A stretch of 64,000 nucleotides of DNA from the NCBI GenBank assembly GCA_001662655.1, contig KV460289.1; one strand, 5' to 3'. Below are positions 27,101-63,293 of the stretch, piece after piece. The stretch is from Pseudogymnoascus verrucosus. Taxonomy: Eukaryota. A program made the position numbers and the translations under genes. The notes under the pieces were generated by a model. That model was not told the DNA's origin, did no database searches, and saw only the letters and a list, made by a program, of their open reading frames with translations. Within the stretch, counting starts at the first letter, position 1. Each line of letters opens with the position of its first letter.

Positions 27101-30100
27101 CCACGAAACTAATACTTGTTGCCAGTTTCTTTGAATGCGAAACAGAAACGCTCTACGTCCCAACAAATTTCATGGATTACCTTCTCAACCTACCACCAAT
27201 GGATATTGTGTCTTGTACCGAGCTTATTTCCGAAATTCTACACAGCGATTTGTCGTTGACCTCGGACGATGCTTTGAGAATAGTACAATGCGCGGGTGGC
27301 CTTTTATCCTCGCAATATTCATGTTGCGAAGTCACACTTAGACTTTGTATCGATACTATGGAGGGACTACTTCCATCATGGGCAAACTCTGAGAGCGGAG
27401 ACTTGGGGGAAATGGTGCAACAGCTTTATGGATGGCTCGTCGGCACTGTAATTTCGAAACGAAGAACTTCCCCCTATGTTCAAATTTGCTTCTCCAAACT
27501 TCTATTTCAACTTATCAGAATCCAGCCAACATATGGGGACGATCAATCTCTGCCTTCCGTAAGGTCAAGTCTTTTTGATATCCTTCAGAAAGCTCCCATT
27601 CTTGTCAAGTTTAACTTGGCCCAAAATATTCCGGATATTTTTGGCTTATTCGTTTTGAAAAACCACCTGCGAATACTCAATGATCTGTTGGACAGCTTGC
27701 CTACGGATTTGGACTGGTGTGAGGGAAATGCTTTCCGTCTCTATATTCTCAGCAGGTTAGCATCACGTTGGCCGACACTGCTTCGAATATGCGCCTACTA
27801 TATTCTTGAGGTGTCCGGAAGAGTGCCTGCCTCTATCCCATACGCCAAGAGGTGTCTATTGGAAGTTTCCGAGACGCTGGGGCTCAGCAGTGCCAGAGAT
27901 TTATTTCAGCTGTTTAACTCCCAGCTCCTTTTTACCTGGCTTGATACAGAACCGTTTGAAAGTTTGCCGCATAGTATCTTCGGGTACAATACCCTTCACG
28001 ATCTTCTCCGGGATAGCCAAGAAGAAATATCGGCACTCATGGTCATGAGAGACCGAGACGACGAAGTAAAAAGTCTAGCAGAATTGCTCGAGGAGCCAGT
28101 CGAACAAATCTTGACGAAATCTTTTACGAAGGTTATTGCGTACAGCGTTGCTCACGATATAAGCATTCCTCCTTCCGACACGTCAGGAAAATATATTACG
28201 GGAGAAGCACGAGTACGAAAGCAGCTTGGAAAAAATGTCTTTCTTGATCTCATGAAAACGCATTTTGCAGACATCATCAGTTTACTGTTCAAATTAATTG
28301 ACCATGAACAAGACCTTGAGAAATCCTTTATGAAAGAAGGCGCACTCCAAGTACCAGCCAGCATATTAACCGAGATAAAGGGGTTCAGCTCGTCGGGTAT
28401 AACGTTGCCCCCCAGCCAGCAGCCAACATTCAAGGCCAAATACTTGACAAGAGAAATCAATCATGTCTGTGGGAGAACTCCCTACGAGCCCTCTGATATT
28501 TTTACGCCAGTCATGGTCGCGTTCGTAGCAAGAAAGCTTCTGGACACCATGAATCCGGCACTTGGCTCTCTCCACGCATGCTCAGTACTTCGGAGGCTTC
28601 GTGTCCTTATTGGACTTGCGGGTCCGAATGCCGTCAGCGGTTATCCCCTCGAGATGATATTGCATAACCTCAGGCCTCTATTAGCAGATGTTGAGTGTGC
28701 TGATGATGCTATTGGAATAGCTCAGTATCTTTTCACACGCGGATCTGAATATTTGAGCACCGTGCCCTCATTTATCATAACCATCGCACTGTCAATGTTT
28801 GGGACTTTGAAGGTATTCTTAAGTTCGAGCCCTTCCAGCACTACACAAGAAAGCCAATATAGAGAAACTCTTTCGAAAGCGGAGTCGTTCCACTCATGGC
28901 TTGGCATATATCTGAAAAATTACAAGGCTATTGGTTTGGACCGCAGGGACCAAGACGCGTTTCGAGCCATGGTGGAATCTGCCCATGGATTAAGTGCCTC
29001 CGATTCGACCGATATGGGCACTACGGGTGGAGATTTGCTTATGGACATCCTGAGAGATAAGCGCTCTCGTAGAAATCTTTTGAGCAAGTCGACTTGCGAG
29101 GTTGTATTTTCTCTTCTATACAGCGAGTTTGCAGCGCCAGCGTCGTTCAGGACAGATCACCTTGGTCAGGACGACCGCGCAGTAAGATATGCCCCTACTG
29201 TGTGGGAGCTTTGCAAGACTGGGTCCACGAGCAGTTCGTTTCTCACCTGGGCTGGTAGAGTGTTTGGCAGAGCATTCGCTGCCACAGGGCATATCGAGTT
29301 GTCATTATTAAAGGAGACAGATTTACACGAGATACTTGATCCCGTTGAAATAGATGCATCCAACAAGCCGTCATCTAGGAGTTCAATCTTGGGACTGGTC
29401 AAGAACTTGACAGTCGTAGATCATGGAAGTGTCACAGGAGTGGCCGAGGCTGCTCTTCGAATTATCGTCAGCGGCATTACTAGTCAGCCGAACAACGCTG
29501 ACAACACAGCATGCTCAATACCATTATCGGCATCTCTAATTCAATGCTCGACTTGGTCGCCATATAATGTCTCTCCAGCCGATATGCTCGCGTTTCAAAC
29601 TCCAGCTCCAAAGGATCCATTTTCTCCTGGGTATATTGAAGACCCTGCATGCATACGGGACCTCTCTATCTTTCTCGTTCAATCTGTACCATCCGATTCT
29701 GTCATTCATCCAATCCAACAACTCCTGGTTGATGCCGCTGGGTTTGCAGAGAAATGTTTCCCTTTCATTCTTCACATCGTATTATCCCAACAATTAGACG
29801 AATCTCAGAATACGAAGCGTCTTCTGTCGACCGCTCTTCGCTCGTGGTTTGGCAATGGCAAGGATATCGTCAAGGAGCGACTCAAACTTCTGATCAATGC
29901 AATATTATACTTGAGAACACAAGCTCTCCCTCGAGAAACTTCAATAGCAGATCGCTCTCAGTGGCTTGATATCGACTATCGCCAAGCATCTCAGGCAGCC
30001 GTGAACTGCGGCATGCTCAAAACGGCGTTGTTGTTCACGGAATTATCATCGTCTGAGTTGGTCAAGGCGTCACGTCGATCCTCCTCAGTGAAGCAGCCTG

Positions 30101-33100
30101 ACTCGGAAATATTATTTTCAATATTCAAGAACCTTGACGATCCCGACATATTTTACGGGCTGCAACGTACTGCCACTTTAGAAACAATATCAGCTCGTAT
30201 GGAGTATGAAAAGGATGGCCTTAAGACCTTAATGTTTCGAGGGGCAGAGTACGACACTCAAATGCGGAAAGGAGGGCTGGCATCTACTTCAGAGGCTCAG
30301 AGCTTGGTCGGTGCCCTCAGTATGTTGGATTTAGATGGACTATCGCATTCATTACTCCAGTCTCAACAAACGGCTGTTGTTATGAATGAGCCTGCAATAC
30401 AGAATATGTTTCGAACTGCTCGCAAACTAGAGCAATGGGATCTCCCCATTCCAGATTCCTACGATGGCGGTTCTATTACGATATACAAGACATTTCAAGC
30501 ATTAAACAATGCTGTTGATCGTGTATCGGCGCATGTTGCTGTCGACACGGGGATTAAGTCTGCCATGTCAAGTTTGATTCAGGTTCAAGGAGATGCTGCG
30601 TCGATACATACATCCCTCCAAGCGCTGTCTATTTTTACAGAAATGGATGAAGTGCTAAGCTCATCCAACTCCGAACAGTTTGAAGAGATGCTCGAAAGGT
30701 TTGAAAGCCGATCTAGGTGGATGAAGACTGGAAAGTAAGCTTTGTGGGAACCCCACAAACGTTGGTTCTCTGTAATTCTAACCAGATATAGGTTCGAAGA
30801 TGTAAGCCAAATAATTTCCAGCAGACAAACCCTTTTAAGCTGCGTAAATCAGCAGTCATCACTACGGAAGATGATCAATGTCAGCGCCTCCGATACGCGT
30901 CTTGTTGAGGCCCGGTCGTCATTATTATCATCGAGTATTCACAGATCCCACGGTGCCCTCCAGGAGTCACTCACCTCAGCAACTTATTTGAATAGTATAA
31001 CTGGGTCTTGCCGAGACCTCGGATTAAACATTGAAGCTGCCGCATATTTTGAAGTTGCAAATGCAATGTGGGACCAAGGAGAGATGGCCTCGTCAATTGG
31101 TATGCTGCAGGAACTCGAGCAGCTCTCAAATTTGAAAGAACAAACGATTCCTATCGGAAAATCAAAGATTCTCGCCAAAATCGCATCTCAGGTGTCCATG
31201 GCAAAATTGGAGAAACCGGACCGCATCATCGAGAAATATCTGTCCCCTGCTCTTGCGGAGTTGAAGGGTAAGACGGACGGCAGTGACGCTGGGCAAGTTT
31301 ATCACGAATTCGCAGTTTTCTGTGACAGACAGTATCAAGATCCCGACAGTATTGAAGACCTTGAACGTCTGAGGACGCTGAAAGAAATGAAAGAAATGGA
31401 AGTTGAGACTCTTCTCAAGTTGTCTAAAGAGGCTACGTCGGGCCAGAAGCAGAGAAACCATAGGGCATACAACCAAGCTAAGCAGTGGCTTGCATTGGAC
31501 ACCGAGGAGTACGAGCGGCTGAATGATGGAAGAGGGCAGCTACTCCGTCGTAGCCTGGAGAACTACCTATTATCTTTGGCTGCCTGGGATGACCACAATA
31601 ACGACGCTCTCCGGTTCACAGCATTATGGCTAGAACACTCTGACGAAGAAGTTGTATCAGAGTCCGTTTCAAAGTATCTCTCTAATGTTGCTACTATGAA
31701 GTTTGCATCGTTGGCCAATCAACTTACATCACGCCTACTTGATACCAAGGATAAATTTCAGGTGCAACTACTCAACTTAGTTCTGAATATATGTAAGGAT
31801 CATCCTCACCATGGGATGTATCAGATTTGGGCAGGCACGAATAGCAATCCAAGCGCAAATGATGAAACAGCCTTATCGAGGCAAAAGGCAACGAAAGAGG
31901 TTGCTCTCAAGTTGAGCAAGAGCGCCAGATCCGGTGGTACTTGGTCGGCCATAGATCGAATAAGCCACCAGTACTGCCATTTTGCCAGTGAGCGAGAGAA
32001 GGTCAAGAGTGGTTCAAAGATAAGCTTGAGAAATTCACCAGCGGGCAGCGCGTTGAATGCCATGCTGCCAAAGAACCCGCTTCCTCCACCAACTCTACAA
32101 ATTGAACTTGCAACGGATAAAAATTATTCTCGATTGCCTACCATGATCAGCGTCGACCCCAGCTTTTCTATCGCAAGCGGCATAAGTGCTCCAAAGATTG
32201 TTACATTACTGGCCAGTAATGGAAAGAGATACAGACAATTGGTAGGGTTTCTTTCTCCTTATTTTATACTCGGAGTGTTTGCTAATACATCGTAGGTTAA
32301 GGGTGGTGCTGACGATCTCCGGCAAGATGCAATCATGGAACAGGTCTTTGCACAAGTCAGCGAACTCTTAAAAGAGAATTCAGCCACTCGCCAACGCAAT
32401 TTGGGGATTAGAACGTACAAGGTATTACCGCTCAGCTCTACAGCAGGCATTATTGAGTTTGTCCCGAACACTATGCCACTTCACGAATTCCTCATGCCTG
32501 CCCACGAAAGGTTTTATCCAAAGGATCTTAGAAGTCAACAGTGCCGCAGCGAAATTCAGAGTGTCCAGACGCAAAAACTCGATGTGAGAGTGAAGAAGTA
32601 TCTCGCCGTCACAGAGAAGTTCCATCCTGTTCTGAGGTACTTTCATTTGGAGAAGTTCACGGATCCCGATGAATGGTTCGCCAGAAGGTTAGCATACACA
32701 CGCTCTACGGCTGCCATCTCAATTCTTGGCTATGTTCTCGGCCTCGGTGACCGCCATGGCCATAACATTCTTTTGGATGAGAAGACCGGCGAAGTCGTTC
32801 ACATCGACTTGGGTGTGGCTTTCGAAATGGGTCGTGTCCTTCCGGTTCCTGAGCTGGTCCCGTTTCGGTTGACTCGAGACATTGTGGATGGCATGGGGAT
32901 TTCGAAAACGGAGGGAGTTTACCGTCGCTGTTGCGAGTTCACGCTGGAGGCCTTGCGGAAAGAGGCAGATACGATCATGACTATCCTTGACGTTCTTCGC
33001 TACGATCCCCTATATACATGGTCGATCTCGCCTATCCGACTTGCGAAGTTACAGGATGCTCAGAGTGCAGCCCCCCCTATAAGCACTGCTAGCTCAACCG

Positions 33101-33336
33101 CTACGAATAACGGAAAGTCGAAAGGAGCAGTAAATGAACCCAGTGAGGCAGACAGAGCGCTTACTGTCGTCCGGAAGAAATTATCAAAGACCTTGAGTGT
33201 TACAGCTACTGTGAACGATCTAATTAACCAAGCCACCGATGAACGGAATCTAGCAGTCCTTTTTGCTGGTAAGTACATTCTTTCATTATGGGGGATAATT
33301 GCTAATTATTTATAAGGTTGGGCTGCATACGCATAA
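24155..33336 (+). CDS. TEL1: Tel1/ATM PIKK kinase; exons about 24155-24245, 24292-24334, 24391-25812, 25860-26200, 26249-30734, 30792-32241, 32296-33268, 33317-33336
   Basis: TAN-like N-terminus (YHTIYEALF), FAT repeats, [58 protein letters not shown]-stop. Confidence 0.96.
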
Positions 33337-33839: not shown

Positions 33840-35386
33840 ATGGGTTTAGGAATTATCACCGAATCTCAGCCGGTGAAGATGAAGCGTAATAATATTGTGG
33901 TATTTTCTGGCGGTAGCGCCGCAAATACCTTGGTGGATGTTTTTGGAAATGTGGCTCGTGAGAAGGGCTGCACGTTGAGCTAGTGAGATATAAATTTCGA
34001 AATGCGAACCGTTGCTAATGGATCTTTAGTATTATTCCCATCAGTGATAATGGCGGATCGTCGAGTGAACTGATTAGGGTGCTTGGGGGACCTGGGATTG
34101 GTGATGTGCGGAGTATGCTTCGATCCCTCGCCCCTACCTAGTTCAAGGCAGCAATCTAACAATGGACAGGTCGTCTCGTCCGACTAATCCCCGAAGATGT
34201 GGCTGGAAATGACCCGGAGAAGGCAGCCATGAAGACATTCTTCAACCATCGCCTCGCATCCACGCCGGAAGCAGCACGCGCAGAGTGGCTCGATATCGTT
34301 GAAGCCCGGCACGAGTTATGGACCTCCATCTCCTCCGAGAAAGAGGAATTAATCCGTTCCTTCCTTAACACCATTAACCTCGAGATTGTGAAGCGAGCTC
34401 GGCCCTCCTCGTTCTTCAACTTTCAGTCTGCTGCGGTGGGCAACCTCTTCCTCACCGGCGCCCGTCTGTTCACTGGTTCATTTGAATCGGCCATTTATCT
34501 TCTCGGATCCATCACGGGGGTTCCATCAAACGTATCCGTCATTCCCACTATTAATTCTAATTTCTCCCACCACATTTGCGCCGGCCTTAGAGATGGAACC
34601 TCGATTGTTGGGCAGAACTCCATCTCCCACCCCAGTCCTCTCCCGAACAATCTCCCAGGCGGAGAGGATGACATCGACGGGCCTATGTCACCGACGACCT
34701 TCCAACGGAAGACTTTCGAGGAACTCATTATGCATGACAGTGTCGAAGACGCTAATCTTCCGGGCTCCCTCCCGACCCTAAGGAAACAGTATATCGATTT
34801 CCACAAGTCTGATACGGAAGACCTACCCTCGAGGATCCGCAGGATATGGTACATCAACCCTTATGGGCAAGAAATACGACCGAGTCCGAACCCAAAGGCT
34901 CTTGCGGCCTTGGGAAACTCGCAAGCTGTGATTTACAGCATCGGTTCCCTATATACGTCTATCATCCCGTGCTTAATATTGAAGGACGTAGGAAACGCTA
35001 TTGCTGCCCCTGGCATTAAATCGAAGATTTTGATTCTCAATGGCTCAATAGATCGCGAGACTGGCCCAGAAACGAATCCATATTGCGCTCGAGATTTTAT
35101 TTGCGCCATCTCCAACGCGTGTGGAACATCCAGGGGCGATCTAAGCGTTGATGCCGCGTACATGAACAAATATGTCACGCACGTGATTCACCTCGAGGGT
35201 GAGGGGACACCAAAGGTTGATAAAGAAGAGCTGAAGAGTTTGGGTATTGAGACTTTCAGAGTGTATGGGAGGAAGAATCCAGAGGGTGGGATGCTGTACG
35301 ACGGGAAAGCGTTGACACAGGCACTTGAGTCGATATTGGGCAGGGAGGATAAGGGTGTTGCAAGGAGAAATACGTTACAGCATTAA
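33840..35386 (+). CDS. CofD/YvcK(GlmR)-like UPF0052 protein (yeast YNL011C-like); introns 33983-34029 and 34113-34169; start 33840 or 33879
   Basis: VVFSGGSAAN, IIPISDNGGSSSE, GPGIGDVRSRL, AVGNLFLTG, IYSIGSLYTSIIP, KILILN. Confidence 0.87.
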
Positions 35387-35722: not shown

Positions 35723-36669
35723 TTATCGTAACGCAGGCTTCTTTCCTTGCTTCTTTGTCATGAGTTTCATCGCCAGGTGGAACACGCCGGTCTTGGGCTG
35801 TTTCCCGTCCTTTTTCGGTGCTCCGATTGCTGTGCGGCAGACCGGGCACGATCTCTTACCAGTGCCGACGTTGAGAGCACCATGGAGGCACGAAGAGCAA
35901 AACATGTGTCCTACAATAGTTAGCATTGTCATGCAATAAAGATCACAAATAATGACTTACCACAATGAGTAATAGCCAGTTCCTCTGGCTGATCTAAACA
36001 GATCACGCACTGCGTCGTAGCAAGCTTCTGGGGTTTATTAAGCTCTGCTTGCCGTTGTTGCTTTATCAGGTCCTCCTGCCGCTTCTTCATGACTTCAGCG
36101 TAGCTGGTGTCGTCTTCCGCATCGATCAGGTCCAGTTCCTCCACCTTATCATCTGGTTTGCTTTTTTGGTGATCGTCCTTCACTGCCTCTAGACTGACCC
36201 CAGCGTCCTTCTTTCGCTTTGGCGTTCGGCCTTCACTGTCTACACTTGGTAGACGGCGCTTCTTGGGTGTTCTGGTTGTGGCGACAGGTGAGGTTTCGGT
36301 GAGGTCGACTATGCTGGATTCTCTCGTGCGGGTGGGAGTCTGTTGTGGAGGTGTATTATTATTCAAGAAGGCGTCGAAATCGAAGTCCTGAAGAACATCA
36401 TCCCCCCGTGGCGAGGGAGGTTCGTGTTGCGGCATTTGTGTGGTTAAGAACGTGTCTTGCCAGGACCTTCGTTGTCGGTCACCGCGGGGTTGTTGCGGTC
36501 TGGTCGCGTTGCTGGAGCCTAAGAGCATGGGCAGAGTGGGGGAGGCGTTTCTGGAAGACCGGCGGGATACATTGATCCATGGAGAGCGTGAGGTTGAGGT
36601 GCGACGGGGCTCCTCATCCTCTGGCGACGATACGAATAGTGATTGGCGGTTTGAAGACGGAGTGCCCAT
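35723..36669 (-). CDS. C3HC4 RING protein with SUMO-interacting motifs (Slx8/Rfp/RNF4-like STUbL); intron 35960-35911
   Basis: Spliced RING CVICLD..ITHCGHMFCSSCL..CPVCR at the C-terminus; SIM-like SIVDLTE and VEELDLID in the disordered N-terminus. Confidence 0.8.
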
Positions 36670-37959
36670 GGCGAGACTGTGATGCGACCTGGAAGGATCC
36701 AACAGACCACAGTCGTAGATGCCTGTTGAGGAATAAGAGTTTGTCCCCAGCCCTTCGGTCTTCTTCACAGACAAAGAGGTGTGCTGGGGCTGAAATTCAC
36801 AGCCATAAGAAGGCAGTTACGTGTATCTAAGAGGGAGAGATTATGTGTATGGCTTCAATACCTAAACGCCGCCTCGGGACGGTTGGATGTCCGCAGTGGC
36901 GACCGTGGTGACCATAGCGCTAGTCTTCCGCAGAACCTTTATCGGACGTCGGCGCAGCAGGTCAGCTGACTCGCCGTACCAAACTTCGGTAGGTTCGGCC
37001 GCTCTGCACCCGGAAACGGAAAATCCTTTTCGGTTTCTCTCAATATCAACTCCACCCAAAATAGCTAGAATATGGATGAAAGGAGTTAAATCGATGAACG
37101 ATAAGATAACATTTGATTCAGTTATATATGGCAGCCTCTACAGTATGATCGCGTGCTCTGTGCCTCAGAGAAAGAACGATCCAGCTCCTTCTGGATCGCA
37201 CTGACCCACAGGATATCACCAACGCCACTCTAATCATCCAATGAACTAGGCCATTTTATCACCTTTTTATTAGAGCAGTTATATTGGACAACCGATTTAT
37301 ATTTATTCGATCGAAACACAAAAAGACGTCATTAATCTCAGAAACGCTACGGCCCAAGATAGCCAAGCCTAGAATCGTTCGCATCTTACCTAACCCATTA
37401 CCTAACCACGTGACACGGCGAAGCACCGCGACCATCTCAAGACCCTTGGCTAAGGCGTATTCGTGCTTTTGTGTCTCCGTTTTAGGGAATTCGCTTTCTT
37501 CAATATCAAGATCAAAGGACATAAGGCGATATTGGCAGTCTACTAAAAGCAAGGTCATCAACTATGGCACTTACGCTCGTGTTTGATGGCATTTTGAGAT
37601 GTTATGTAGGTCAGATCTGTTGCTGAACAACGCCGAGAAGTTGCTTCCAATTTATATAAAAAAGCACGCCGAACTATTCAGCCAAGTAAGTTGATCTCTA
37701 CGGCCAAGCTACTTGGTGTTGATTACCAAGCCCTATGGATGAATCATTCGCCATCCGTCCCTGCCATGCTTTATTTATTTTATATTTCCTACGCCTATAT
37801 ATAGGTCGTTCCCCAAGTTATGCCTTGGCTTTTGAATACTTCTAATCTACTGTCATTAAACTACATCGAGTGATACACACAAAACCAAACCTCACTAGTA
37901 CACTCCATTGAGTGCGTTATAAAAACAAATTTTCCAGTACACACACATAAACCGTCACA

Positions 37960-38747
37960 ATGGCGCGTAGGCCAGCGCGGTGCTACCGCTACTGCAAGAA
38001 TAAAGTAAGTGCTTCCTATTCCGATGCTTTATCAGAATACTAACCGTCCTAGCCCTTCCCAAAATCCAGACACAACCGCGGAGTTGCCGACCCAAAAATT
38101 CGCATCTTCGACAGCGGCCGCAAGAAGGCATCCGCTGATGACTTCCCTCTCTGCATCCACGTCGTCTCTCTGGAGCGCGAGCAAATTTCCTCCGAGGCCC
38201 TAGAGGCTGCCCGTATTCAAGCCAACAAGTACGTCTCTCTTCCTACTCCATCAGTTTATACAACCACTAACATATAAATAGATACATGGTCAAGAACTCC
38301 GGCAAGGAGACCTTCCACCTTCGCATTCGCACACACCCTTACCACGTCATCCGTATGAACAAGATGTTGTCTTGTGCTGGTGCAGATCGTCTGCAGCAGG
38401 GTATGCGTGGCGCCTGGGGTAAACCCGCCGGTATCGTTGCTCGCGTTAGAGTCAACCAGATTCTGATTTCGATGAGAACGATTGATCGTTGCGAGCTCCA
38501 GGCCAAGACGGCGCTGAAGAGAGCCATGTACAAGTTCCCCGGTCAGCAGAAGGTGGTCGTCAGCAGGAACTGGGGATTCACGAAGGTTAAGAGGGAGGAC
38601 TATCAGAGAATGAGGGAGACCGACCAGCTGAGACTTGACGGTGCTGGTGTGCAGTTCCTTGAGAAGAAGGGAAGGATAGAAGACCAGATCAAGAACTTTC
38701 CAGCTGCATTTGCAGATGGGATTGGTGTGGAGCAGCTGGCGATCTGA
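37960..38747 (+). CDS. RPL10: 60S ribosomal protein uL16/Rpl10, divergent, 228 aa; exons 37960-38004, 38053-38228, 38282-38747
   Basis: [62 protein letters not shown]. Confidence 0.95.
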
Positions 38748-39267
38748 GAGGCTTGAAGGCTCGAAGATTGCCAGAGGTAGCAATAGTTAAAATATAGGAT
38801 ACAATATACAAGAATTATCCACACACTGTATTTTTGTCGATAAACAAATGCTTATGTGAAATAAATGTTCCTCGTCGTCTTTCTCATAAACGCCATCTGG
38901 CCGTTGTCTTTTAAAAAAGTGACATAAATTTGCGTTCTAATTAATAATATAATTTATGTCCTCAATTTAATAAAATGATTTTATTTCTCGCTTTTGCATC
39001 TTTTTGGGGGGGACGCAGTTGCTGGCTTTCCTCTGCAAACATTCTCATTTTCATTCTCCTGACTTGGATTGGAAGACCCCGACATCCGATACCCCACATT
39101 CTGGATCATTGTAACGTAAGCGACGCTAACGTGGATTTGGCGATGGCCTGCAATATTGCTCGAAGTAGCTCGATAGTGGCACGCCCGCATCATCGACCGA
39201 TGTAAGATTACAATATCGACAACATATGGGCAGCAAGGAGTCATGAGCATGACACGTCGCATATAGT

Positions 39268-42200
39268 ATGCTTCTCCCTACACGCGCTGGATATTCGAGT
39301 CGACCATGCGCCAGCTTCGTTAGGCTCGCAAAGCTCAAGGCGCGGGATGAAACCACGCATCTCAGTCGCGGCGCGGTACGACGCGGATTCGCAACAGATG
39401 GAGCCATTTTAGAAGATCACCAGACGAAGAACCCCTCTTCTCTTGCCAGTATGTATTGCGCGCGTGACGGTACTATTGTACACCTTACTAACGAGTTATC
39501 GCAGAGACTTCAAACCCCCGTTTTAATGAAATAGGGGTGCAGCAACTCAGCAGCCATGTCCACTCCCAAATATTCCCCGGACCGTCAGTTGCGGCGCCGA
39601 AAGAACTTGTCGAGCTTGCGAGAGATCATTTGCAGCGACACGAGCTCCTCGGCAAGAATACAGACGACAACCCCCCGATATCGTTCGATTTACCACTACT
39701 CCAAGGCGAAACCCTTGATGAGCACTTCTATAAATTAGGCACGGATGCTGGGGAGCCGTACTTTGGCTATGCAAACCAGTTTACGAAGGCAAACGGACCA
39801 CCGAAACCGCGGAAATGGGTGCATCGAAGCGGCTGGACGAAGTACTACAGTGATGGGAGGACGGAGGCAGTGGATGCGCCAAATGAGGAGATGTTATGTT
39901 TCGACACTGAAGTTATGTGGAAGGAGAGCTCATTCGCCGTTATGGCATGCGCAGTCAGTCCCACTGCTTGGTATGCCTGGTTATCGCCATGGCTGCTTGG
40001 GGAGTCGGAATCCGATAGACACCTGATACCCCTTGGGGATCCACAACGTCACCGGATAATTGTTGGGCACAACATTGGCTACGATAGAGCCCGGATCGCA
40101 GAGGAATACTCTGTAAGCCAGTCTAAGAACTTCTTCCTTGACACCATGTCGCTACACGTGGCCGTCAATGGAATGTGCTCCCGACAACGACCAACCTGGA
40201 TGAAGCACAGAAAAAACCGAGAGCTACGAGATAAAATCGCACACGAGACAGATAACATCGAATTGGCTGCCCTTTTAGGTGACAGGGGCCTTACCGAAGA
40301 AGAGGAGGAGCTGTGGGTGGGCAGAAGCTCTGTCAATTCGTTACGAGATGTAGCCAAGTTCCATTTGGATGTCACCATTGACAAGGCTCAAAGGGACAGC
40401 TTTGGCGAACTCGACCGCGCTGGCATTCGAGGAAAGCTGGACGAACTGTTGGATTACTGTGCTGCGGATGTCTCGATCACACACCGCGTGTACAAAATCG
40501 TCTTCCCTAATTTCCTCGCGACATGCCCTCACCCAGTGAGCTTCGCTGCATTACGCCACCTATCATCTGTCATACTTCCAGTTGACAAGTCATGGGAGTC
40601 ATATATCGCCAACGCAGAAGCTACATATCTGAAACTCTCCGATTCCGTCCAGGAACGCCTGATCGCACTGACTGAGAAGGCTCTGGAGATCAAAGGAGAT
40701 GAGGAGAAGTGGAGTAATGACCCGTGGTTGCGTCAGCTGGACTGGTCGGGCCAAGAAATCAAGATGGTAAAGGGCAAGAAGAAGAATGACCCTCCGAGAC
40801 CAGCGGCACGGCAAAAGATGCCAGGTATGCCAGCATGGTATAAGGGCCTTTTCGCCAAGGCTGATGCCCCAATCAATTTGACTGTTAGGACCAGACTTGC
40901 ACCGCTCCTGCTTCGATTGGCATGGGATGGACATCCATTGTTTTGGTCTGATAAATATGGCTGGACATTCCGAGTGCCAGTAGCTGAGTCTCAGAAGTAC
41001 AAGGAGTTGCAGATGCAGAGGTGCACCGAGTTCGATGAGAAGGATATGGCGCTGAGAGACGATACAGGCGGCGTTTTTTACAAGATTCCGCATAAGGATG
41101 GACCAACGGCACGGTGTGCAAACCCGATGGCAAAGAGCTACATGTCATACTTCGAAAAGGGCATCCTATCTTCGGAATACTCATACGCAAAGGAGGCTCT
41201 TGAAATGAACGCTTCGTGCTCCTACTGGATAAGCGCAAGAGACCGCATCATGTCGCAGATGGTTGTATATGACGCTGATCTCCAGAAGCCAGCCAAGGGA
41301 CAAGCATCTAACGACACGGGCTACATTCTACCGCAAGTTATCCCCATGGGCACGGTGACAAGACGAGCTGTCGAAAATACATGGCTTACAGCAAGCAATG
41401 CCAAGGCAAATCGTGTCGGATCAGAGTTGAAGTCTATGGTCAAGGCGCCACCCGGATACTGCTTTGTGGGAGCTGATGTGGACTCTGAAGAGCTTTGGAT
41501 CGCGAGTCTCGTCGGTGATGCACAGTTCAAGCTGCATGGTGGGAATGCCTTGGGGTTCATGACCTTGGAAGGCACCAAAGCAGCTGGAACTGATTTGCAT
41601 TCGAGGACTGCGTCGATTCTGGGCATTACGAGGAACGATGCCAAGGTGTTCAATTACGGACGTATCTACGGAGCAGGTCTCAAGTTTGCGTCTACTCTAC
41701 TCAGACAGTTCAATCCTGGATTGTCGGAAGCAGAGACCACAAAGGTTGCCACGGCTCTGTATAAGGAGACCAAGGGAGCGAAGACTAACCGGAAGGCGTT
41801 ACACAAGAGGCCTTTCTGGCGTGGAGGAACCGAGAGCTTTGTCTTCAATAAGCTTGAAGAATTTGCAGAGCAGGAGAGGCCGCGGACGCCAGTTCTCGGA
41901 GCAGGAATTACTGAAGCATTGATGAGTCGATTCATCAACAAAGGTGGCTTCATGACTTCGAGGATCAACTGGGCGATTCAATCTTCTGGTGTCGACTATC
42001 TGCATCTTCTGATAATATCTATGGACTATCTGATTCGTCTGTTCAACATCGATGCGAGACTCGCAATCACCGTCCACGACGAAATCAGATATCTGGTCCG
42101 TGAGGAGGATAAATATAGAGCTGCAATGGCTCTGCAAGTGTCCAACGTCTGGACTCGCGCCATGTTCTCTCAACAAATGGGCATCAATGACCTTCCCCAG

Positions 42201-42734
42201 TCTTGTGCTTACTTCTCGGCCATCGATATTGACCATGTTCTCCGCAAAGAAGTGGATATGGACTGCATCACCCCATCGCACCTAACAAAAATCCCCCACG
42301 GAGAGTCAATGGACATCATGCAGCTCCTTGCCAAGGGCTCGCTCGCAAAACTGGAGCCTAGCATCCAGCCGACCGACGCACCAAAGCTCGACGGCATTAA
42401 GTACACCCATCGCCAACCGGTGATGGAGGCGCTAGAGAAGGCTAACCTCAGCTTCCTCAAAGCACAAATCACAGCCGACGAGAACGAACTAAAAGAGATC
42501 GTCAAGGTCCAACGCAAAGTCCTCGACGCCGACGAAAAAACCGCTAAGCCGAAGCAAACACGCGCTCGCAAGATCCTGCCATACCAGGCGCACGCAGAAT
42601 TGATGGAGGAGCCACTTAATATCACTGACTTGCTAGAGAGCAACTTCAGGAAGGACACGAGGAAGAAGAAACAAGAGCACTACCCGTGGGAAGAACAGAT
42701 GCCGCCGCGGTATAAACCCACACACCGCTGGTAA
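39268..42734 (+). CDS. MIP1: Mitochondrial DNA polymerase gamma; exons 39268-39448 and 39505-42734
   Basis: Arg/Ser-rich presequence; PRFNEIGVQQLS; exonuclease FDTE, GHNIGYDRAR, YCAAD; polymerase VGADVDSEELW, AKVFNYGRIYGAG, ITVHDEIRY. Confidence 0.97.
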
Positions 42735-45332: not shown

Positions 45333-48300
45333 CTACGCCGCCTCCTCCATCCCCTCCCACCCCCCCTCCATCTCCAAAAACGCCCTCACCCTCCCCCTCA
45401 CCTGCCCCAGCTCCCCCCCCAACGCACTCTCCCACTGCTCCTCCACACACCTAACCTTCTCCTTCAAATCATCCGTCAACGTCCTCCCCTCCGCCTCCGT
45501 CTCCTGCTCCACCTCCCCCCTCACAACCTCCGCCTCCTCCCCGCCCGCCACACGCTCGCTCTCCTGCGCACGCGCTCGAGCTGCCGTAACAGCCGTCTTC
45601 ACCTCGTGTAACAGGCAGAGGAGGTTCGTCTGGCTCTCGATGAACTGGTATGTGCTTCGACCACCGTGCTCGAGAAGGCTGTAGAGGTACTGCATCGGCC
45701 ACTCGTGGTAGGCGGGGTTTTCATCGTATTCCCCGGCCGGGATCTGCACGCGGAACTCCCTCGTGACAATCCCAGGGATCTTATCCAGTATACTCCTCAA
45801 CCCCGGCGCAATGTCCCAGAAGGCACTGAGCTGCACCTCCACCCCCCTCACCACATTCGCCTCCACAACATCCATAAACTCCATCGTCCTCCCCAACGCC
45901 CCCTGCGCGAACTCCACCCTCCTCTTCCCGGCATCATCAGCAAAAAAGCGTTCCGCGCCCACGACCTTATCCTCCCGCCCCGCCAGCCGGTAAGGTTCAA
46001 TAACCATATCCCTATACCGATCATTCCGATCCGACAACAAATCATAAAGCTCCGCATGCAACTGCTCCCGTGCCTCAAAAATCCATTTCAACAACGTCAA
46101 TTTCTCCAACAACTCAGGCTGCTCATCCCCCTCTTCCTGCGTGGCCGTCGGATCCTGCGCGCGCGCGTCGTCGAAGAGCTGGCTGCGGAGCTGCTCAAAG
46201 AGCGTGGTGCAGGTGTGCACGCGCTCCATTAGCAAATCATTCACGGGCGCTACGACGGCGGTTTGGAAGCGCTCGAATGAGGCTTTGGATGTTGCTTTCG
46301 TGTGCTCGTTCTCTGCTGCCGCTGCATCAGATTCTGCCTTCGCAGCATCAGCATACGTCATACTCCCGGCCTCGATATCGCGCGCGATGGTAGCGCGGAG
46401 GGCTTGTCGGCGCTGTGTAGCTGCTGCGGAGGCGGTGTGGCGCGCCTGTTCGTCGTCGGTGAGGAAAGTGGCTTTTGTGGCTTCGACGTCGGTGAATTTG
46501 CTGAGTTGCCGGACGGTGGTGCGGATCTCGGTTAGGTCGGGGTGGTTGTTGTTGACGGCGGGGTGGTGGCGGGGGTAGGGAGGCGGGAGGGTGACGAGGC
46601 GCGAGACGTCGAGGTGCCGGGGGTTGGGGGTGGGAGGGGCGGGGGAGTGGTTGAAGTGGTTTGTGGGGGTTTTGTGGGGGGGGGAGATGGGGCCTTCATC
46701 GTGCCAGCCTGTTTTCTCGGGGGGGTATTCGTCGGGGCCGTAGGAGGCGTAGTTACTAGGGCCTGCTTTTGGAGATGACTGGGGTAGCTGCGAGGGTGTC
46801 GAGTTTCCGTTCCCCTCCCATTGTAGCGACTCGCGAAGCTCTCGCGGCATTCCCATGTACTTTGACTCCCTCTTCGACCGCTCCAGCACTGTTGGCGACC
46901 CTCCCGAACCAGATTGCCCAACTTCCCACCACCTACTCGACGGTCTGCCCCTGGAGCTTGACTCCTCCTGAGCTTGACTCGCGCTCATACTAGGAATCGG
47001 CGACAGCGACGGCATATACCCCGTCCACCACGTTGATTCCGGCCTCGACCCCGGTCCCGCAGAACCCATACTCGACGCCGACGACGGCGCCGAATCAATC
47101 GGTCCAGTCTGCAGCGGTGGCAGACCGCTGAGCCCCTTATGTTCTGCAGTACTGGTGTGCGAACCGAATGAGCTCCGTTTCGAGTGCGTATATGGTCGGA
47201 ACAAGTCCCGTGTCAGCTCTAGCACCTCCGAGCCCATTGCATCAATGGCTGAGGTGTATAATTCTCGCCGAATCCGCGATTCTGAAACGATAAAATCGGC
47301 AAAGAGGCGGATGCGCTCCTCGTCCGTGTTTGCTGACGCCTCGCGCAGGATGAACTGCTCATGCCTCTGCAGCGCTGCGCTGCTGAAACTCCCAGCTGCT
47401 GGCGACGGTGACTGACGAGACGGTGCGCGCTTCGGTGATAATGGGACCGGCATACCCTGGTCCTTCAATGGCGTGTGTAAGATGTGCGAGATCGGTCGAG
47501 GCGAGCTGTCCGCGCGACGGCGAGAGATCGGCGGAGGAGTTGGGAGAGACTTGGGTGGTATATTCGGGTTGTGGCCTTGATACGAGTTCCGTGATGGATA
47601 CTGTGCGGGCGAGAACGGCGGCGTAGGCGCCTCAGTGCGACTTGCAGAGTTCAATGGCCTGGGCGTCGAGCCACGAGACTCGGGCTGCTGGATATCCGCC
47701 AACCGAGGCGTAACATGGCTGAGTGTCCGCGACGAATTCGGCGTATTCTGGCTTTGGTAGTTGGGTGTTCTCGATGAGTTCGGGGTATCCTGGTTCTGGA
47801 AGGAGCGTGCGCTGGAGGGGTTCGATTTTGCAATTTCTGGGCGCCTGCCAAGCACAGTCATAGGCGGCACCATAATATCAGCGGGTGTAATGGCTTCTGC
47901 CCAGGGATTGTTCGAAGGCTCTTCAATCGCAACAGCTTTGCCCGATCTACTCTCGCTCCTCCGCTCGCGAATGCTCTTTGGTTCGCCTCGAACCGCATGC
48001 GCTCTTGTTAATCCGGACGAGCTGGAGCCAGAATTCGACTCTGTGTGGCCGCTCGAGCTGACACTCGATGTGTCGAGATGTAGCGCTCCCGGAGGGAGTG
48101 GTGACCGCGGTCGTGGTGCGCCTGGCACCACTCGCGGGCTGTCTACCCAGCCCGCAGGAGTGGGGGGAACAGGGCCTAGTGTAGAAATAGGAGCTGGTCT
48201 GCGCGTCGGCGGGGACACAATCGGGTCAACACCCTCTGGACGTGACAGACTTTGTGACCTGGAACCCGACTGCGGGGGTGGCCCTGGCGGAGGAGGTGGT

Positions 48301-49152
48301 AGTGGCATGCCAGGTGCCCATCTCGACGTCGACGAATTGCGCGAGCGGGAACTGGGGCCTGTGGGAGTTCCGATTGCGCTTGCTGATACCGCGCGCCTGG
48401 AAGCTGGCGGCCTTTGCTCAGCAACTATGACGGGGAATGCCTCTGTAGACGGCTCCAAATTAAGTGGTGGGGGCCTGTGCGATGACGATGGTTGGTCTCT
48501 TATATCAACCGACCCCCGGGTCCTAGACGATGACGGCTGGTCTCTGCTTATATCTATCGATGCGCGCTGCCTTGACGGCTCTGGCACTTCTGGTGTTGTA
48601 GGCTTGCGGTGGAAGACATTTCCAAGATGGCTGAGCAGCGGCTGTGTCCTATCCCTCGATCTTGTTCGCGATGTCGGAGGAGGAGGTGGGAAGGCAGCCG
48701 CGGGCACTTCTGGTGAAGGTCTGTACGCGGCGCCCCCAGGGCTACCACGATTTAGCGGTGACGCCGAGGTGGCCGAGTCCAACGGGGAGAAACTAGTCGC
48801 ACTGTTATGGCTTCGAGGCGGCGAGTAAGGTGGAGGGGCAGGAGCTATATTTTATCATCAGCTACAGCACATTCAATTCGTAGGAGGCTAACACACCCAT
48901 AACCACATCTGAAGGAGACGGTGAATACCGCCCATTATCAGGCGAATACCCCGTCTGGGCACCACCCCATTGCTGCGGATTGTACTGCCTCACACCGCTG
49001 GCAGGTGTATAAGGCGTCTGGTGGTGAAAGGGCGAGCTCAAACTGACTGCAGAGTTCGGGGCCTGGAACTGCGGCTGCGGCGGGCCCAGCTGCGTCGCGA
49101 GGGGGTTGAGATTCTGGCGGCGCCGTTGGGAGGCTTCGGCGAGGCTGCTCAT
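45333..49152 (-). CDS. Uncharacterised Pro/Ser-rich protein with helical C-terminal domain (about 1255 aa); intron 48896-48845
   Basis: Exon 1 (MSSLAEASQRRRQNLNPL) splices in frame to the 1149-aa ORF; motifs APPPYSPP, LDVSRLVTLPPPYPRHHPAVNNNHPDL, ELLEKLTLLKWIFEARE. Confidence 0.85.
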
Positions 49153-50778: not shown

Positions 50779-51799
50779 CGTGACTTTTAATTTTTTGCGT
50801 TTTTGCTGGTACGAGCTAGCGAGGGGCATTTCGGGCATTTCGCTGACTGACTCGAGTGATTCGTATGTGCTTATATAATCTCTTACGTAATCATCCAATG
50901 CGAGCCTTAGGGCTGGCTGTCCGTGTCCTCGGCACATCCACACTCGACCATAATAGGTCTAGCGTAAATGCAAGTCATCAACAGATCGGATCGTGAATAT
51001 CATCTTTTATGGTACGATGAGAATGTCAACAGATCGATTTTATCAACGATTCAGGACCACTTACGCGTCTTCCGCGTATGGATATGCTCTACGTACTGTA
51101 CATACATACATACATACATACTTCACGACTAATGTCCATTTTTGCCCTTCTACCTCCCGTTATTCCCTTCAATCACTGCTGTGAACATCACTGAGACTAC
51201 TGTCTTGCCCAATTTCGGCATACGTGGAGAATCAAATGGGGCAACTGCACATGTGAGAACGGCCACAAGTGGAACCTCAACTTTCCCCTCCATCCATCCA
51301 CGGCCCTCTACAGCCCTCCCTTCCCTTCCATCCCTCCCTTCCCGACCCACCAGCCTGGCCCTCCCTCCCACAACCGCCACCAGCCTTTCAACGAAGACGG
51401 GGTGAGACCCCCTCAGCCACCGAATCAAAAGCAGAAGAACCAACCCCAAGCGGACCCAACCCTCCTCGCCATGACGCGCACCCACAGGTCTCGGGTGCTA
51501 GCGTCCCAAGGTGGCACGATGCAGCCGCGGTCGTACGGGCCCCGAGCGAGCAGAGCTTTTCGAAGCTCGTCCCGGCGCCCCCGACCTGGCATCTTACAAA
51601 GTCACCCGTCCTGACAATTGCACAACATCAACAATCCGGTGACACAAGTTAAAAATAACAAGAGAGAAAGAGAGAGATTGCAACACGATCAATCGCTCTT
51701 GGATTTTCGCATATCGAAGTCGTCGTTCTTGCAAACCGCACACACTTCTGACCCACGTACGCTCGTTTTTTAAAAATCACACGCGACACACTCGACACG

Positions 51800-53038: not shown

Positions 53039-53075
53039 GCTGGCCCGCGGGGCGCCCGATTCCGATTCCGCGAAG

Positions 53076-54106: not shown

Positions 54107-54960
54107 TGATGGTTGTCAGTTGTTTGGGTTTGGGTTTGGGTCTGGGTAATGATGGAATGTACATGGTTTGGGTACGGACGGTGTCTTGGGCTTTCGTGGG
54201 AAGGAATCGGGAGCATGGAATATGGATATACTGGATTGTTGGATGTGAGATAGATGGTGTTTTATGTTTTGTTACTGTATTGTAATTCTATGTATGGTAG
54301 CTAGCTTATAGCAGAAAAAAGATGTCTGGTGATACTTGATACTTTTGAGCACTCTTGAGGATCCTGAGTATAAATCGCAGTCGACAGTGCCTGGAAATAC
54401 CAACCTCAACCCCGAAATCCCCATACTCCCTATCCGCCGCCCCATCTGTCTGTACGGCTAGCTCACCTCGGCACGGAAGAAAGGAGAAGCTGTAAGAAGA
54501 ATGACTTACTTCCAAGCGATACTGGAGATTGTCATGTTTTCGTGGGAAGAATCTCCATGTTCTTCATTCTAGAGCCGCGTTTAATAATTATTTTCAAGAT
54601 GGGATGATGGGCTGTTGTCGTTCTCGCCATCAGCTGTCTTTCTCATTGTCGATTACCCTTCTCACCATCGGCCGCTCTTCTCACTGCCAATTACCCTTTC
54701 CACCGCCAGCCACCCTTCTCACTGTCAGCCACCTCTCCCACCTTCATATAAAACTAGTATCTGGATAACGAAGATACGTCTGAGACCTCATATATGCCTC
54801 GAAGTTATTTTCTCAATACCATTCCCTTCCTATATACCTTGAGGATGCAAGGACATGGTGTGGGGGGTGGGAGTCAGCACCAGGATGCTGCATATATGTG
54901 CATACGGTGGTAAGAGCCCATCAGTTAGTACTTCCAATATGTATATATATACCCATACCT

Positions 54961-63242: not shown

Positions 63243-63293
63243 TATACCAAAAAATTAGCAAAAATAAAGGGTTTTGTAAATTGACCGTTCGGC

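What the first reader, a model, noticed from the sequence alone, without database searches (positions are those of the whole stretch)
37960..38747. Intact but strongly diverged RPL10/uL16: candidate specialised ribosomal-protein paralog
Seen: the spliced gene is intact, has two introns, and keeps the N-terminal peptide ([16 protein letters not shown]) and P-site loop ([12 protein letters not shown]). Compared with the remembered fungal uL16 consensus it has many radical changes at normally near-invariant sites: SRF/Y->SRH, DLGRK->DSGRK, SNE.EQL->SLEREQI, ARIC->ARIQ, RINK->RMNK, RVNIGQ->RVRVNQ, EALRR->TALKR, PGRQK->PGQQK, plus a short C-terminal extension. Established: uL16 is among the most conserved ribosomal proteins, lies by the peptidyl-transferase centre, and mammals have a stage-specific paralog (RPL10L). 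Inference: this is a second copy that builds stage- or stress-specific ribosomes or confers tolerance to a ribosome-targeting toxin.
Basis: partly seen in the sequence, partly recalled or inferred. Interest (0 to 1): 0.72.

Follow-up and report, generated by a model that had tools for sequence, protein, structure and literature searches.

The report
Diverged extra ribosomal protein uL16 gene
This is an intact, transcribed and selectively maintained extra copy of the ribosomal protein uL16 (RPL10) gene in a Pseudogymnoascus fungus, very different from the ordinary copy found in relatives, so it is a good candidate for building a variant ribosome, though its role is untested.

Summary
Window 37960-38747 (+) is a three-exon uL16/RPL10 gene. 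Both introns (38005-38052, 38229-38281) are removed in RNA contigs of 4 of 4 public runs laid. The 228-aa product is identical to a protein annotated in P. verrucosus / VKM F-103. It differs from the consensus at 19 of 148 columns that are at least 95% conserved in 140 ordinary Pezizomycotina uL16 proteins; those 140 score a median of 0.

It is an extra copy. Relatives carry an ordinary RPL10 as well: P0270 in P. destructans and VKM strains, and P0275 in VKM F-4515, which also has the diverged gene. The window's own genome could not be searched.

The diverged clade sits on a stem of about 1 change per site. It groups with a second, milder paralog lineage of some Leotiomycetes. Inside the clade selection is purifying: 20 synonymous against 8 non-synonymous codon changes, and none of the 8 lies before codon 166.

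No biosynthetic core gene lies in the window. The P. destructans model of this gene is aberrant.

Most likely it is an alternative uL16 loaded into some 60S subunits. Its function is not shown.

The parts
37796..37803 (+). TATATATA, a TATA-box-like element about 80-100 nt upstream of the first bases covered by RNA contigs
   Evidence: Read directly. RNA contig pieces start at 37881-37897 (table 8). Contigs cannot fix a true start, so this is an inference.
37881..37959 (+). 5' untranslated region (minimum extent)
   Evidence: RNA contig pieces of X1, X2 and X4 begin at 37881-37897 and run into exon 1 (table 8).
37960..38004 (+). Exon 1: 15 codons, the N-terminal peptide that is invariant across all 42 aligned uL16 proteins
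   Evidence: All but residue 2 of the first 15 columns are invariant in A1 (residue 2 is at least 90% conserved).
38005..38052 (+). Intron 1 (48 nt; GTAAGT donor, CTAAC branch site, TAG acceptor)
   Evidence: Skipped in RNA contigs of 4 of 4 runs (table 5 and 5c). Other fungal RPL10 loci (L014, L021) have an intron at the same place.
38053..38228 (+). Exon 2 (codons 16-74; the last codon is split, phase 2)
   Evidence: PF00252 match.
38229..38281 (+). Intron 2 (53 nt; GTACGT donor, ACTAAC branch site, TAG acceptor)
   Evidence: A 'skips 53, GT..AG' joint in 2 contigs in each of the 4 runs. X4 record 22 crosses it with 0 differences from the window. Mis-spliced ordinary (P0104) and 'B' (P0258) gene models carry extra residues at the same position, as do loci L014 and L021.
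38282..38747 (+). Exon 3 (codons 74-228 plus TGA): P-site loop, globular core, variable C-terminal third and a 7-residue extension
   Evidence: PF00252 at 65.7 bits.
38748..38792 (+). 3' untranslated region (minimum extent)
   Evidence: RNA contig pieces reach 38769-38792 (table 8).

Best explanation
The window carries a functional extra gene for large-subunit ribosomal protein uL16 (RPL10/L10e) of a Pseudogymnoascus species. I call this lineage 'C'. It arose by DNA-level duplication, since both ancestral introns are kept. It most likely came out of an older, mildly diverged uL16 paralog lineage ('B') seen in some Leotiomycetes. It then went through a burst of about one substitution per site and has since been held by purifying selection across the genus. 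Relatives keep an ordinary uL16 gene ('A') beside it.

The chaperone- and rRNA-binding N-terminus and the whole P-site loop are untouched, while about 15 otherwise near-invariant core positions are fixed in a new state. So the most likely mechanism is this: the protein is loaded into part of the cell's 60S subunits in place of ordinary uL16, at the late cytoplasmic assembly step, and gives ribosomes with an altered surface next to the peptidyl-transferase centre and tRNA corridor.

Shown: gene structure, transcription and splicing, membership in the uL16 family, coexistence with an ordinary copy in relatives, the burst of change, and purifying selection.

Inferred: the presence of the ordinary copy in this very genome, incorporation into ribosomes, and any condition-specific role.
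For: Structure and expression. Both introns are removed in RNA contigs of 4 of 4 runs from 2 studies. Three of the runs are on record as metatranscriptomes. One contig is identical to the window across the intron-2 joint.

Family membership. PF00252 scores 115.3 bits against a cut-off of 27.9. TIGR00279 uL16_euk_arch scores 234.1 bits against a cut-off of 223.55. The best solved relative is Neurospora 80S chain 7r81_L1, E 1.5e-101. All 50 top Foldseek matches are uL16 chains of ribosome structures.

Extra copy. Ordinary P0270 (P. destructans VC83_09634 plus VKM accessions) and P0275 (VKM F-4515) exist beside C-type P0124 of the same VKM F-4515. The window protein differs from P0270 at 71 aligned positions plus 7 gap columns.

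Divergence. It differs at 19 of 148 near-invariant columns. The C-clade stem is 0.85-1.01 changes per site, against a median tip branch of 0.042-0.064.

Selection. There are 28 changed codons between the window and relatives' transcripts: 20 synonymous and 8 non-synonymous. In codons 91-163 the count is 11 synonymous and 0 non-synonymous. Among 8 distinct full-length C proteins, only 7 variable columns lie in residues 1-165, against 21 from column 166 on, counting the end gaps.

Kept functional elements. Residues 1-16, R98 and A106-Q112/G114-G124 are invariant with all ordinary copies in the 42-sequence alignment.

Origin. 13 derived states are shared with B and not with Leotiomycete A. B+C has support 89/91 and P0010+C has 96/88. 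Intron positions are shared with A and B genes.
Against: The window's own genome is not held, so the ordinary copy in this genome is inferred from relatives.

No protein-level or ribosome-fraction evidence exists. The one cold-stress proteomics paper I searched names L10a and L16 (a 202-aa entry), not this protein.

The expression evidence is from assembled contigs of environmental RNA, so neither the level nor the conditions can be read.

Codon bias is only moderate: Nc 47.3 and GC3s 0.65, against Nc 51.8-61 in 11 of the 12 other ORF stretches measured and 43.5 in the LUC7 stretch. No ribosomal gene of this genome was available as a yardstick.

The origin from B is not secure. The AU test does not reject a clade of C with the genus's own A copies (p 0.093), and long branches are involved.

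The structure model is of low confidence (mean pLDDT 59.7).
Confidence: 0.6

Rival explanations
1. Toxin-tolerance copy. The diverged uL16 gives ribosomes that resist a translation inhibitor acting near the peptidyl-transferase centre. The inhibitor would be the fungus's own product or that of soil competitors. The copy became dispensable in the bat-associated P. destructans.
For: The fixed changes sit in a protein that lines the tRNA corridor (established knowledge of uL16, recalled). Duplicated, diverged target genes are a known route to self-resistance in fungi; I saw only the search listing and abstracts of target-directed genome-mining papers. The only P. destructans protein of this lineage is an aberrant model.
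Against: No PKS, NRPS, terpene cyclase, P450 or other biosynthetic core family was found among the 43 ORFs scanned. The neighbours are housekeeping genes: Tel1/ATM, a CofD-like gene, mitochondrial DNA polymerase gamma, Nup192, cullin. No inhibitor is known to me whose resistance maps to eukaryotic uL16 in a producer (recalled; not searched beyond). The TRI12-like transporter fragment lies 20 kb away and is only a weak match (34.2 bits).
Confidence: 0.12
2. Extraribosomal or assembly-related role. The protein no longer serves in translating ribosomes. It acts as a regulator, or as a placeholder or competitor in late 60S maturation.
For: The scale of change is large for a protein that must fit a conserved rRNA pocket: 71 substitutions relative to the ordinary copy and 54 clade-specific states. 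The new conserved hydrophobic C-terminal extension could be a new interaction site.
Against: The elements that make sense only inside the ribosome are fully conserved: the N-terminal rRNA-threading peptide, R98 and the P-site loop. It still passes the curated equivalog cut-off for uL16.
Confidence: 0.12
3. It is the main or only uL16 of this particular genome, and the divergence is lineage-wide evolution of the orthologue.
For: The window's genome could not be searched. The gene is the one named 'ribosomal 60S subunit protein L10' in a P. verrucosus record.
Against: An ordinary copy exists in at least P. destructans, VKM F-4515 and other VKM records. It is nearly invariant in the genus: 4 differences between P0270 and P0275. 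The ordinary copies sit with other Leotiomycetes in the tree, while the diverged clade does not.
Confidence: 0.03
4. A decaying duplicate on its way to becoming a pseudogene.
For: Very long stem branch. The P. destructans model of this lineage looks broken.
Against: The reading frame is intact and both introns have consensus signals. It is spliced in RNA. Codon changes are 20 synonymous to 8 non-synonymous, with none in the core. Eight distinct full-length orthologues are all intact, at 228-231 aa.
Confidence: 0.03

Closest known systems
Ordinary fungal uL16 / RPL10 (for example Neurospora crassa 80S chain 7r81_L1; Pseudogymnoascus P0270 = VC83_09634)
   Same: The same family by the Pfam and NCBIfam cut-offs, the same length class, and the same two intron positions. 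The N-terminus and P-site loop are identical.
   Different: About 67-68% identity, where ordinary copies have a median of 84% among themselves. It differs at 19 of 148 near-invariant columns. Its C-terminus is 7 residues longer. It is not the orthologue: the genus's ordinary copies branch elsewhere.
'B-type' uL16 paralogs of Leotiomycetes: Hyaloscypha hepaticicola P0139, Rhexocercosporidium P0140 (beside its ordinary P0104), Oculimacula yallundae P0258 and Pseudogymnoascus sp. VKM F-4281 V493_07488 (P0012)
   Same: 13 shared derived states, for example [16 protein letters not shown] and FTK. They group together in the tree (89/91). They exist beside an ordinary copy in at least one genome.
   Different: B is mild: a median of 79% identity to ordinary copies and 4-6 changes at near-invariant columns. 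B has TV in place of SC in the P-site loop, where C keeps SC. C carries 54 further states of its own.
Mammalian RPL10L (uL16-like) and plant or fission-yeast RPL10 duplicates
   Same: A second uL16 gene kept beside the main one. RPL10L is found in solved ribosomes, for example chains named '60S ribosomal protein L10-like' such as 7cpv_LI and 4ug0_LI. RPL10 is listed among the duplicated families in Schizosaccharomyces (passage of PMC6993855).
   Different: From recall, not tested here: RPL10L is an intronless retrogene almost identical to RPL10, and plant copies are also very similar. The gene here keeps its introns and is about one third different in sequence, far beyond those cases.

Membership tests
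uL16 / L10e ribosomal protein family (PF00252; TIGR00279 uL16_euk_arch) | Profile score above the curated cut-offs | tested here: met
   For P0128, which is identical to the window protein: PF00252 scores 115.3 bits (cut-off 27.9) and TIGR00279 scores 234.1 bits (cut-off 223.55). The ordinary P0270 scores 265.1 and B-type P0012 scores 252.3.
uL16 / L10e ribosomal protein family (PF00252; TIGR00279 uL16_euk_arch) | uL16 fold | tested here: met
   The 50 best Foldseek matches are all uL16 chains of ribosome structures (E 5e-23 to 1e-18, TM about 0.5). The model is weak: mean pLDDT 59.7, with the N-terminus and loop below 50.
uL16 / L10e ribosomal protein family (PF00252; TIGR00279 uL16_euk_arch) | Conserved N-terminal peptide and P-site loop | tested here: met
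   Residues 1, 3-16, R98, N100-L103, A106-Q112 and G114-A118 are invariant across 42 aligned A, B and C proteins.
uL16 / L10e ribosomal protein family (PF00252; TIGR00279 uL16_euk_arch) | Physical presence in the 60S subunit | not testable with these tools
   No proteomic data on this protein were found.
Canonical (orthologous, housekeeping) RPL10 of Pezizomycotina | Branches with the species' relatives and keeps the near-invariant columns | tested here: not met
   The genus's ordinary copies P0270 and P0275 branch with Leotiomycetes. The window's clade does not and has a stem of about 1 change per site. There are 19 of 148 near-invariant columns changed.
Retained, diverged ribosomal-protein paralog ('specialised ribosome' candidate) | An ordinary copy coexists in the same genome | tested here: inconclusive
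   Met in relatives: VKM F-4515 has V496_07276 and V496_07791. The window's own genome is not held.
Retained, diverged ribosomal-protein paralog ('specialised ribosome' candidate) | Transcribed and correctly spliced | tested here: met
   Both joints appear in RNA contigs of 4 of 4 runs.
Retained, diverged ribosomal-protein paralog ('specialised ribosome' candidate) | Purifying selection after divergence | tested here: met
   20 synonymous against 8 non-synonymous codon changes from the 32 listed CDS differences (39 further differences were not shown by the tool), with 11 against 0 in the core. Protein variation is concentrated after residue 165. No formal codon-model test was possible, because no orthologous CDS was available.
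Retained, diverged ribosomal-protein paralog ('specialised ribosome' candidate) | Condition- or stage-specific expression, or a distinct translational output | not testable with these tools
   Contigs give no expression level or condition.
Self-resistance target duplicate of a biosynthetic gene cluster | Lies within or beside a cluster with a biosynthetic core enzyme | tested here: not met
   43 ORFs of the 64-kb window were scanned against Pfam. None is a PKS, NRPS, terpene synthase, prenyltransferase or P450.

The most novel reading that the evidence does not exclude
Pseudogymnoascus soil fungi maintain a two-tier, or in some strains three-tier, uL16 system. The strongly remodelled 'C' protein equips a sub-population of ribosomes with a changed tRNA-corridor and PTC-adjacent surface. 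This gives a selective advantage in soil, either tolerance to A-site or PTC-binding toxins of competitors or stress-specific translation. The copy was lost when P. destructans moved to bats. That would be a natural, genetically tractable case of a functionally distinct core ribosomal protein variant in a filamentous fungus.
Probability: 0.2. Interest if true: 0.8.

Novelty: new variant of a known kind. Interest (0 to 1): 0.55.

Why it matters
Whether ribosomes of different protein composition do different jobs is still argued. Most known ribosomal-protein paralogs are nearly identical, which makes their effects hard to separate from dosage. Here a protein at the catalytic heart of the large subunit exists in a form about one third different from the ordinary copy. 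It is expressed and is kept by selection across a genus. It appears to be broken in the one member that became an animal pathogen. That combination allows clean tests by paralog-specific peptides, deletion, yeast replacement and inhibitor panels. The milder 'B' lineage in other Leotiomycetes suggests that uL16 duplication is recurrent in this class.

Tried and rejected
**Whole-genome search.** A search for a second RPL10 in the window's genome was not possible because no genome is held.

**Metagenome scan for orthologous DNA.** The aim was to get DNA for dN/dS. It returned 45 loci, all ordinary RPL10 genes of other fungi. Apparent hits of 78-80% were single conserved exons.

**V493_07488 (P0012) as the ordinary copy.** I first took it as the genus's ordinary copy and then rejected that. 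Its 90% cluster holds only one Pseudogymnoascus record beside Helotiales. It is at most 83-84% identical to other RPL10 proteins. The true ordinary copies turned up in another cluster.

**Literature.**
- No paper holds 'GMDG_02445'.
- 'Pseudogymnoascus' plus 'ribosomal protein L10' gave 4 papers and nothing relevant. The passages in PMC10703952 concern L10a and a 202-aa 'L16', and its supplement had no hit.
- The supplement of PMC13208438 had no hit for L10, ribosomal or the UniProt id.
- Passages of PMC12724331 do not name L10.
- Searches on uL16 paralogs in fungi, specialised ribosomes in filamentous fungi and ribosomal self-resistance genes gave nothing on this gene.

**Tree tests.** AU p is 0.093 for C together with the genus's A copies, so that clade is not rejected. 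AU p is 0.032 for all B/C together with Leotiomycete A. The place of the duplication stays open.

**Codon bias.** It is moderate and has no yardstick from this genome.

**Structure model.** It is too weak to map the substitutions.

**RNA families and tRNAs.** Nothing was found around the gene.

**Earlier notes of this scan.** None were found.

**Depth peak at 38330-38413 in the RNA runs.** It comes from other organisms' RPL10 transcripts, as the loose ends read differently, and was not used as a measure of expression.

Full report
**What is in the sequence.** Window 37960-38747 (+) holds a three-exon gene:
- exon 1, 37960-38004
- intron 1, 38005-38052 (GTAAGT...CTAAC...TAG)
- exon 2, 38053-38228
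- intron 2, 38229-38281 (GTACGT...ACTAAC...TAG, phase 2)
- exon 3, 38282-38747, ending in TGA

Joined in a script, the CDS is 687 nt and encodes 228 aa. Exons 2 and 3 each match Pfam PF00252, Ribosomal_L16. The spliced product is identical over all 221-222 kept alignment columns to P0128, a 228-aa protein annotated in P. verrucosus and in Pseudogymnoascus sp. VKM F-103. The window therefore comes from that species or a very close relative. P0128 passes PF00252 (115.3 bits; cut-off 27.9) and the curated equivalog model TIGR00279 uL16_euk_arch (234.1 bits; cut-off 223.55). Its best solved relative is uL16 of the Neurospora 80S ribosome (7r81_L1, E 1.5e-101).

**Is it expressed?** Twenty-four public runs hold part of the stretch. 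I laid four: X2-X4 are metatranscriptomes of one study, and X1, from another study, is only guessed to be RNA. In 4 of 4 runs, contigs join 38004 to exon 2 and 38228 to 38282, the latter as 'skips 53, GT..AG' (table 5). At the first joint the contigs carry CCT, or CCC TAT, where the window has CCC, or CCC TTC. These are the synonymous and the F17Y variants also seen among the annotated orthologues. One contig (X4, record 22) crosses intron 2 with no difference from the window. Removed introns cannot come from contaminating DNA, so the gene, or its close orthologues, is transcribed and correctly spliced in nature. Contigs give no level or condition. The very high depth at 38330-38413 comes from other organisms' RPL10 transcripts, as their loose ends read differently.

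**Is the divergence real?** I aligned the window protein, eight full-length C orthologues, five B-type proteins and 140 ordinary full-length Pezizomycotina uL16 proteins. The ordinary set was every fetched protein of 215-225 aa that starts with the usual N-terminus, with the special groups left out. The window differs at 19 of the 148 columns that are at least 95% conserved in the ordinary set. The ordinary proteins themselves have a median of 0 and a maximum of 14, and B-type proteins have 4-6. Median identity to ordinary copies is 67%, against 84% among ordinary copies.

C71Q is also real, but in a less conserved column. Two states, Q113 and Q162, are normal in other fungal groups (L001 and L004). 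The N-terminal 16 residues, R98 and the P-site loop are untouched. The C-terminus is 7 residues longer than in the genus's ordinary protein and ends in a conserved hydrophobic motif.

**Is it a second copy?** The window's genome is not held, so I worked through relatives. The 90%-identity cluster of the diverged protein has 22 members. All eight named NCBI proteins in it are from Pseudogymnoascus: nine VKM strains and P. verrucosus. My first candidate for the ordinary copy was V493_07488 of VKM F-4281 (P0012), and it proved odd. Its cluster otherwise holds Helotiales (Hyaloscypha hepaticicola, Rhexocercosporidium), and it is only 83-84% identical at best to any other RPL10.

The true ordinary copies surfaced inside a large cluster. 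P0270 is one sequence shared by P. destructans (VC83_09634, ELR10735.1) and at least three VKM accessions. P0275 is V496_07276 of VKM F-4515. VKM F-4515 also has the diverged V496_07791 (P0124), so both genes sit in one genome. P0270 and P0275 differ at 4 positions. The window protein differs from P0270 at 71 aligned positions plus 7 gap columns.

**Evolutionary history.** In maximum-likelihood trees (51 and 55 rows, LG+C20+F+G4) the ordinary Pseudogymnoascus copies sit with other Leotiomycetes. The diverged clade has 100/100 support and hangs on a stem of 0.85-1.01 changes per site, while median tip branches are 0.042-0.064 and branches inside the clade are 0-0.035. For the second tree I dropped two rows that had been flagged as long or gappy: B_Logan_P0259 and Lasiodiplodia.

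The clade groups with the 'B' lineage: Hyaloscypha hepaticicola, Rhexocercosporidium, Oculimacula, VKM F-4281 and unnamed environmental sequences. B+C has support 89/91. The nearest row is P0010, at 96/88. Thirteen derived states are shared by B and C but not by Leotiomycete A. Eleven states are shared by C and A but not B, and these are most simply ancestral states that B later changed, such as SC to TV in the loop. Fifty-four states are unique to C. Rhexocercosporidium has both an ordinary (P0104) and a B copy (P0140), so B is itself a paralog lineage.

The origin is not settled. The AU test does not reject C being sister to the genus's own A copies (p 0.093). It marginally rejects all B/C together with Leotiomycete A as one clade (p 0.032). 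Long branches are in play. Both intron positions of the window gene recur in ordinary fungal RPL10 loci (L014, L021). The second also recurs in mis-spliced A and B gene models (P0104, P0258). This points to duplication at the DNA level, not retroposition.

**Selection.** No orthologous CDS could be fetched; the metagenome scan gave 45 loci and none was C-type. I therefore classified the differences that the read-laying tool listed between the window and relatives' transcripts. Of the 40 listed rows, 32 lie in the CDS. I dropped 6 rows in the 5' UTR and 2 in the 3' UTR, and the tool did not show 39 further differences. The 32 differences change 28 codons: 20 synonymously and 8 non-synonymously. 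Twenty-two of the 32 differences are at third positions. In codons 91-163 the count is 11 synonymous to 0 non-synonymous. With roughly three non-synonymous sites per synonymous site, this is a dN/dS of the order of 0.1. That is my rough estimate, not a model fit.

At the protein level the eight distinct full-length orthologues differ by 4-14 substitutions. Seven variable columns lie in residues 1-165 and 21 lie from column 166 on, counting the end gaps. So a burst of change was followed by constraint on the new sequence. About 15 near-invariant positions are fixed in a new state in all 8 orthologues.

**Context.** Forty-three ORFs of the window were scanned against Pfam. The neighbours are housekeeping genes:
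- Gpi16, catalase, LUC7, cullin and Nup192
- Tel1/ATM (24311-33315)
- a CofD-like gene (34160-35386)
- mitochondrial DNA polymerase gamma (39492-42734)

There is no biosynthetic core enzyme. The only transporter hit is a weak TRI12/MFS fragment 20 kb away. A clustered self-resistance role therefore has no support here. Codon bias of the gene (Nc 47.3, GC3s 0.65) is stronger than in 11 of the 12 other ORF stretches measured (Nc 51.8-61; the LUC7 stretch has 43.5). Without a ribosomal gene of this genome as a yardstick it says little.

**P. destructans.** The only P. destructans protein of this lineage is GMDG_02445 (P0006, 174 aa). Its first 41 residues match another reading frame of exons 1-2, part of exon 2 is skipped, and 40 residues of exon 3 (114-153) are missing. 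No P. destructans record is among the named members of the intact cluster or among the top hits of the search. Either the gene is broken in that species or the model and assembly are poor. If it is broken, the copy is dispensable there, which fits with that species having the ordinary P0270.

**How it most likely works.** uL16 is inserted late into the 60S subunit. Its N-terminus and its loop reach toward the tRNA corridor and the peptidyl-transferase centre (established knowledge, recalled). These elements are untouched and the protein still scores as a uL16 equivalog. I therefore think it is loaded into a share of 60S subunits in place of the ordinary protein, giving ribosomes with a changed local surface. 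This is an inference: no ribosome-fraction data exist. The rivals are a toxin-tolerant variant, an extraribosomal or assembly role, the sole copy of the genome, and a decaying duplicate. They are rated in the report sections; the last two are contradicted by the data above.

**Comparison with what is known.** Second uL16 genes are known. Chains named '60S ribosomal protein L10-like' occur in solved ribosomes, and RPL10 is listed among duplicated families in fission yeasts (passage in PMC6993855). From recall, those copies are nearly identical to the main one, and RPL10L is an intronless retrogene. The present gene keeps its introns and is about one third different.

I found nothing in print on it or on the B lineage. 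I saw listings and abstracts, plus passages of PMC10703952, PMC12724331 and PMC6993855, and I searched the supplements of PMC10703952 and PMC13208438. bioRxiv supplements were not open to me.

The structure model is weak (mean pLDDT 59.7; the N-terminus and loop are below 50, as expected for rRNA-bound segments). Its 50 best PDB matches are all uL16 chains.

**Verdict.** 'Second copy' is supported through relatives. The functional claims are open. This is a new, unusually diverged variant of a known kind of thing, a retained ribosomal-protein paralog, and is of moderate to good interest.

Noticed in passing
Not in the window: proteins P0012, P0138-P0140, P0258, P0007-P0010: A second, milder uL16 paralog lineage ('B') exists in some Leotiomycetes. 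It has TV for SC in the P-site loop and is about 79% identical to ordinary copies. It sits beside an ordinary copy in Rhexocercosporidium (P0104 and P0140). Unnamed environmental sequences (P0005, P0010, P0011) form a ladder between ordinary copies and B/C.
   Followed up: partly
Not in the window: P0012 (V493_07488, Pseudogymnoascus sp. VKM F-4281): This B-type protein is the only Pseudogymnoascus record of its cluster. In the tree it lies closer to Rhexocercosporidium's B copy than Oculimacula's does. It could be a third uL16 gene of that strain, a transfer, or a contaminating contig.
   Followed up: partly
Not in the window: P0006 (GMDG_02445, P. destructans 20631-21): This is an aberrant 174-aa model of the diverged gene. 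The N-terminus is read in another frame, and 40 residues of exon 3 and part of exon 2 are missing. The loop carries S104A. It is either a pseudogene in the bat pathogen or an assembly or annotation error.
   Followed up: partly
window 38334-38387: RNA contigs of very high depth (up to 7342 in X2) match only this 54-nt stretch, and their flanks read differently (tables 2 and 7). They are other organisms' RPL10 transcripts cross-matching the conserved loop region.
   Followed up: no
window 63291-63367 and 63496-63572 (-); 62827-63168 (-): Two tRNA-Gln(CTG) genes lie 205 nt apart, next to an ORF with an HTH_psq domain. Such a domain occurs in pogo/Tc5-type transposases (recalled).
   Followed up: no
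window 45333-48851 (-) and 51649-54287 (both strands): Long open frames (up to 1172 aa) with no Pfam match lie in the most G+C-rich part of the window (0.58-0.60). Overlapping open frames on both strands suggest a composition effect or low-complexity proteins.
   Followed up: no
window 35929-36816 (-), 36866-37586 (+): The stretch between the CofD-like gene and the uL16 gene holds open frames of 295, 112 and 113 aa without any Pfam match. The identity of the upstream neighbour is unknown.
   Followed up: no
window 13939-14433 (+) and 58519-59385 (+): There is a glycoside hydrolase family 28 (polygalacturonase-like) exon (E 2e-49) and a weak TRI12/MFS transporter fragment (34.2 bits).
   Followed up: no
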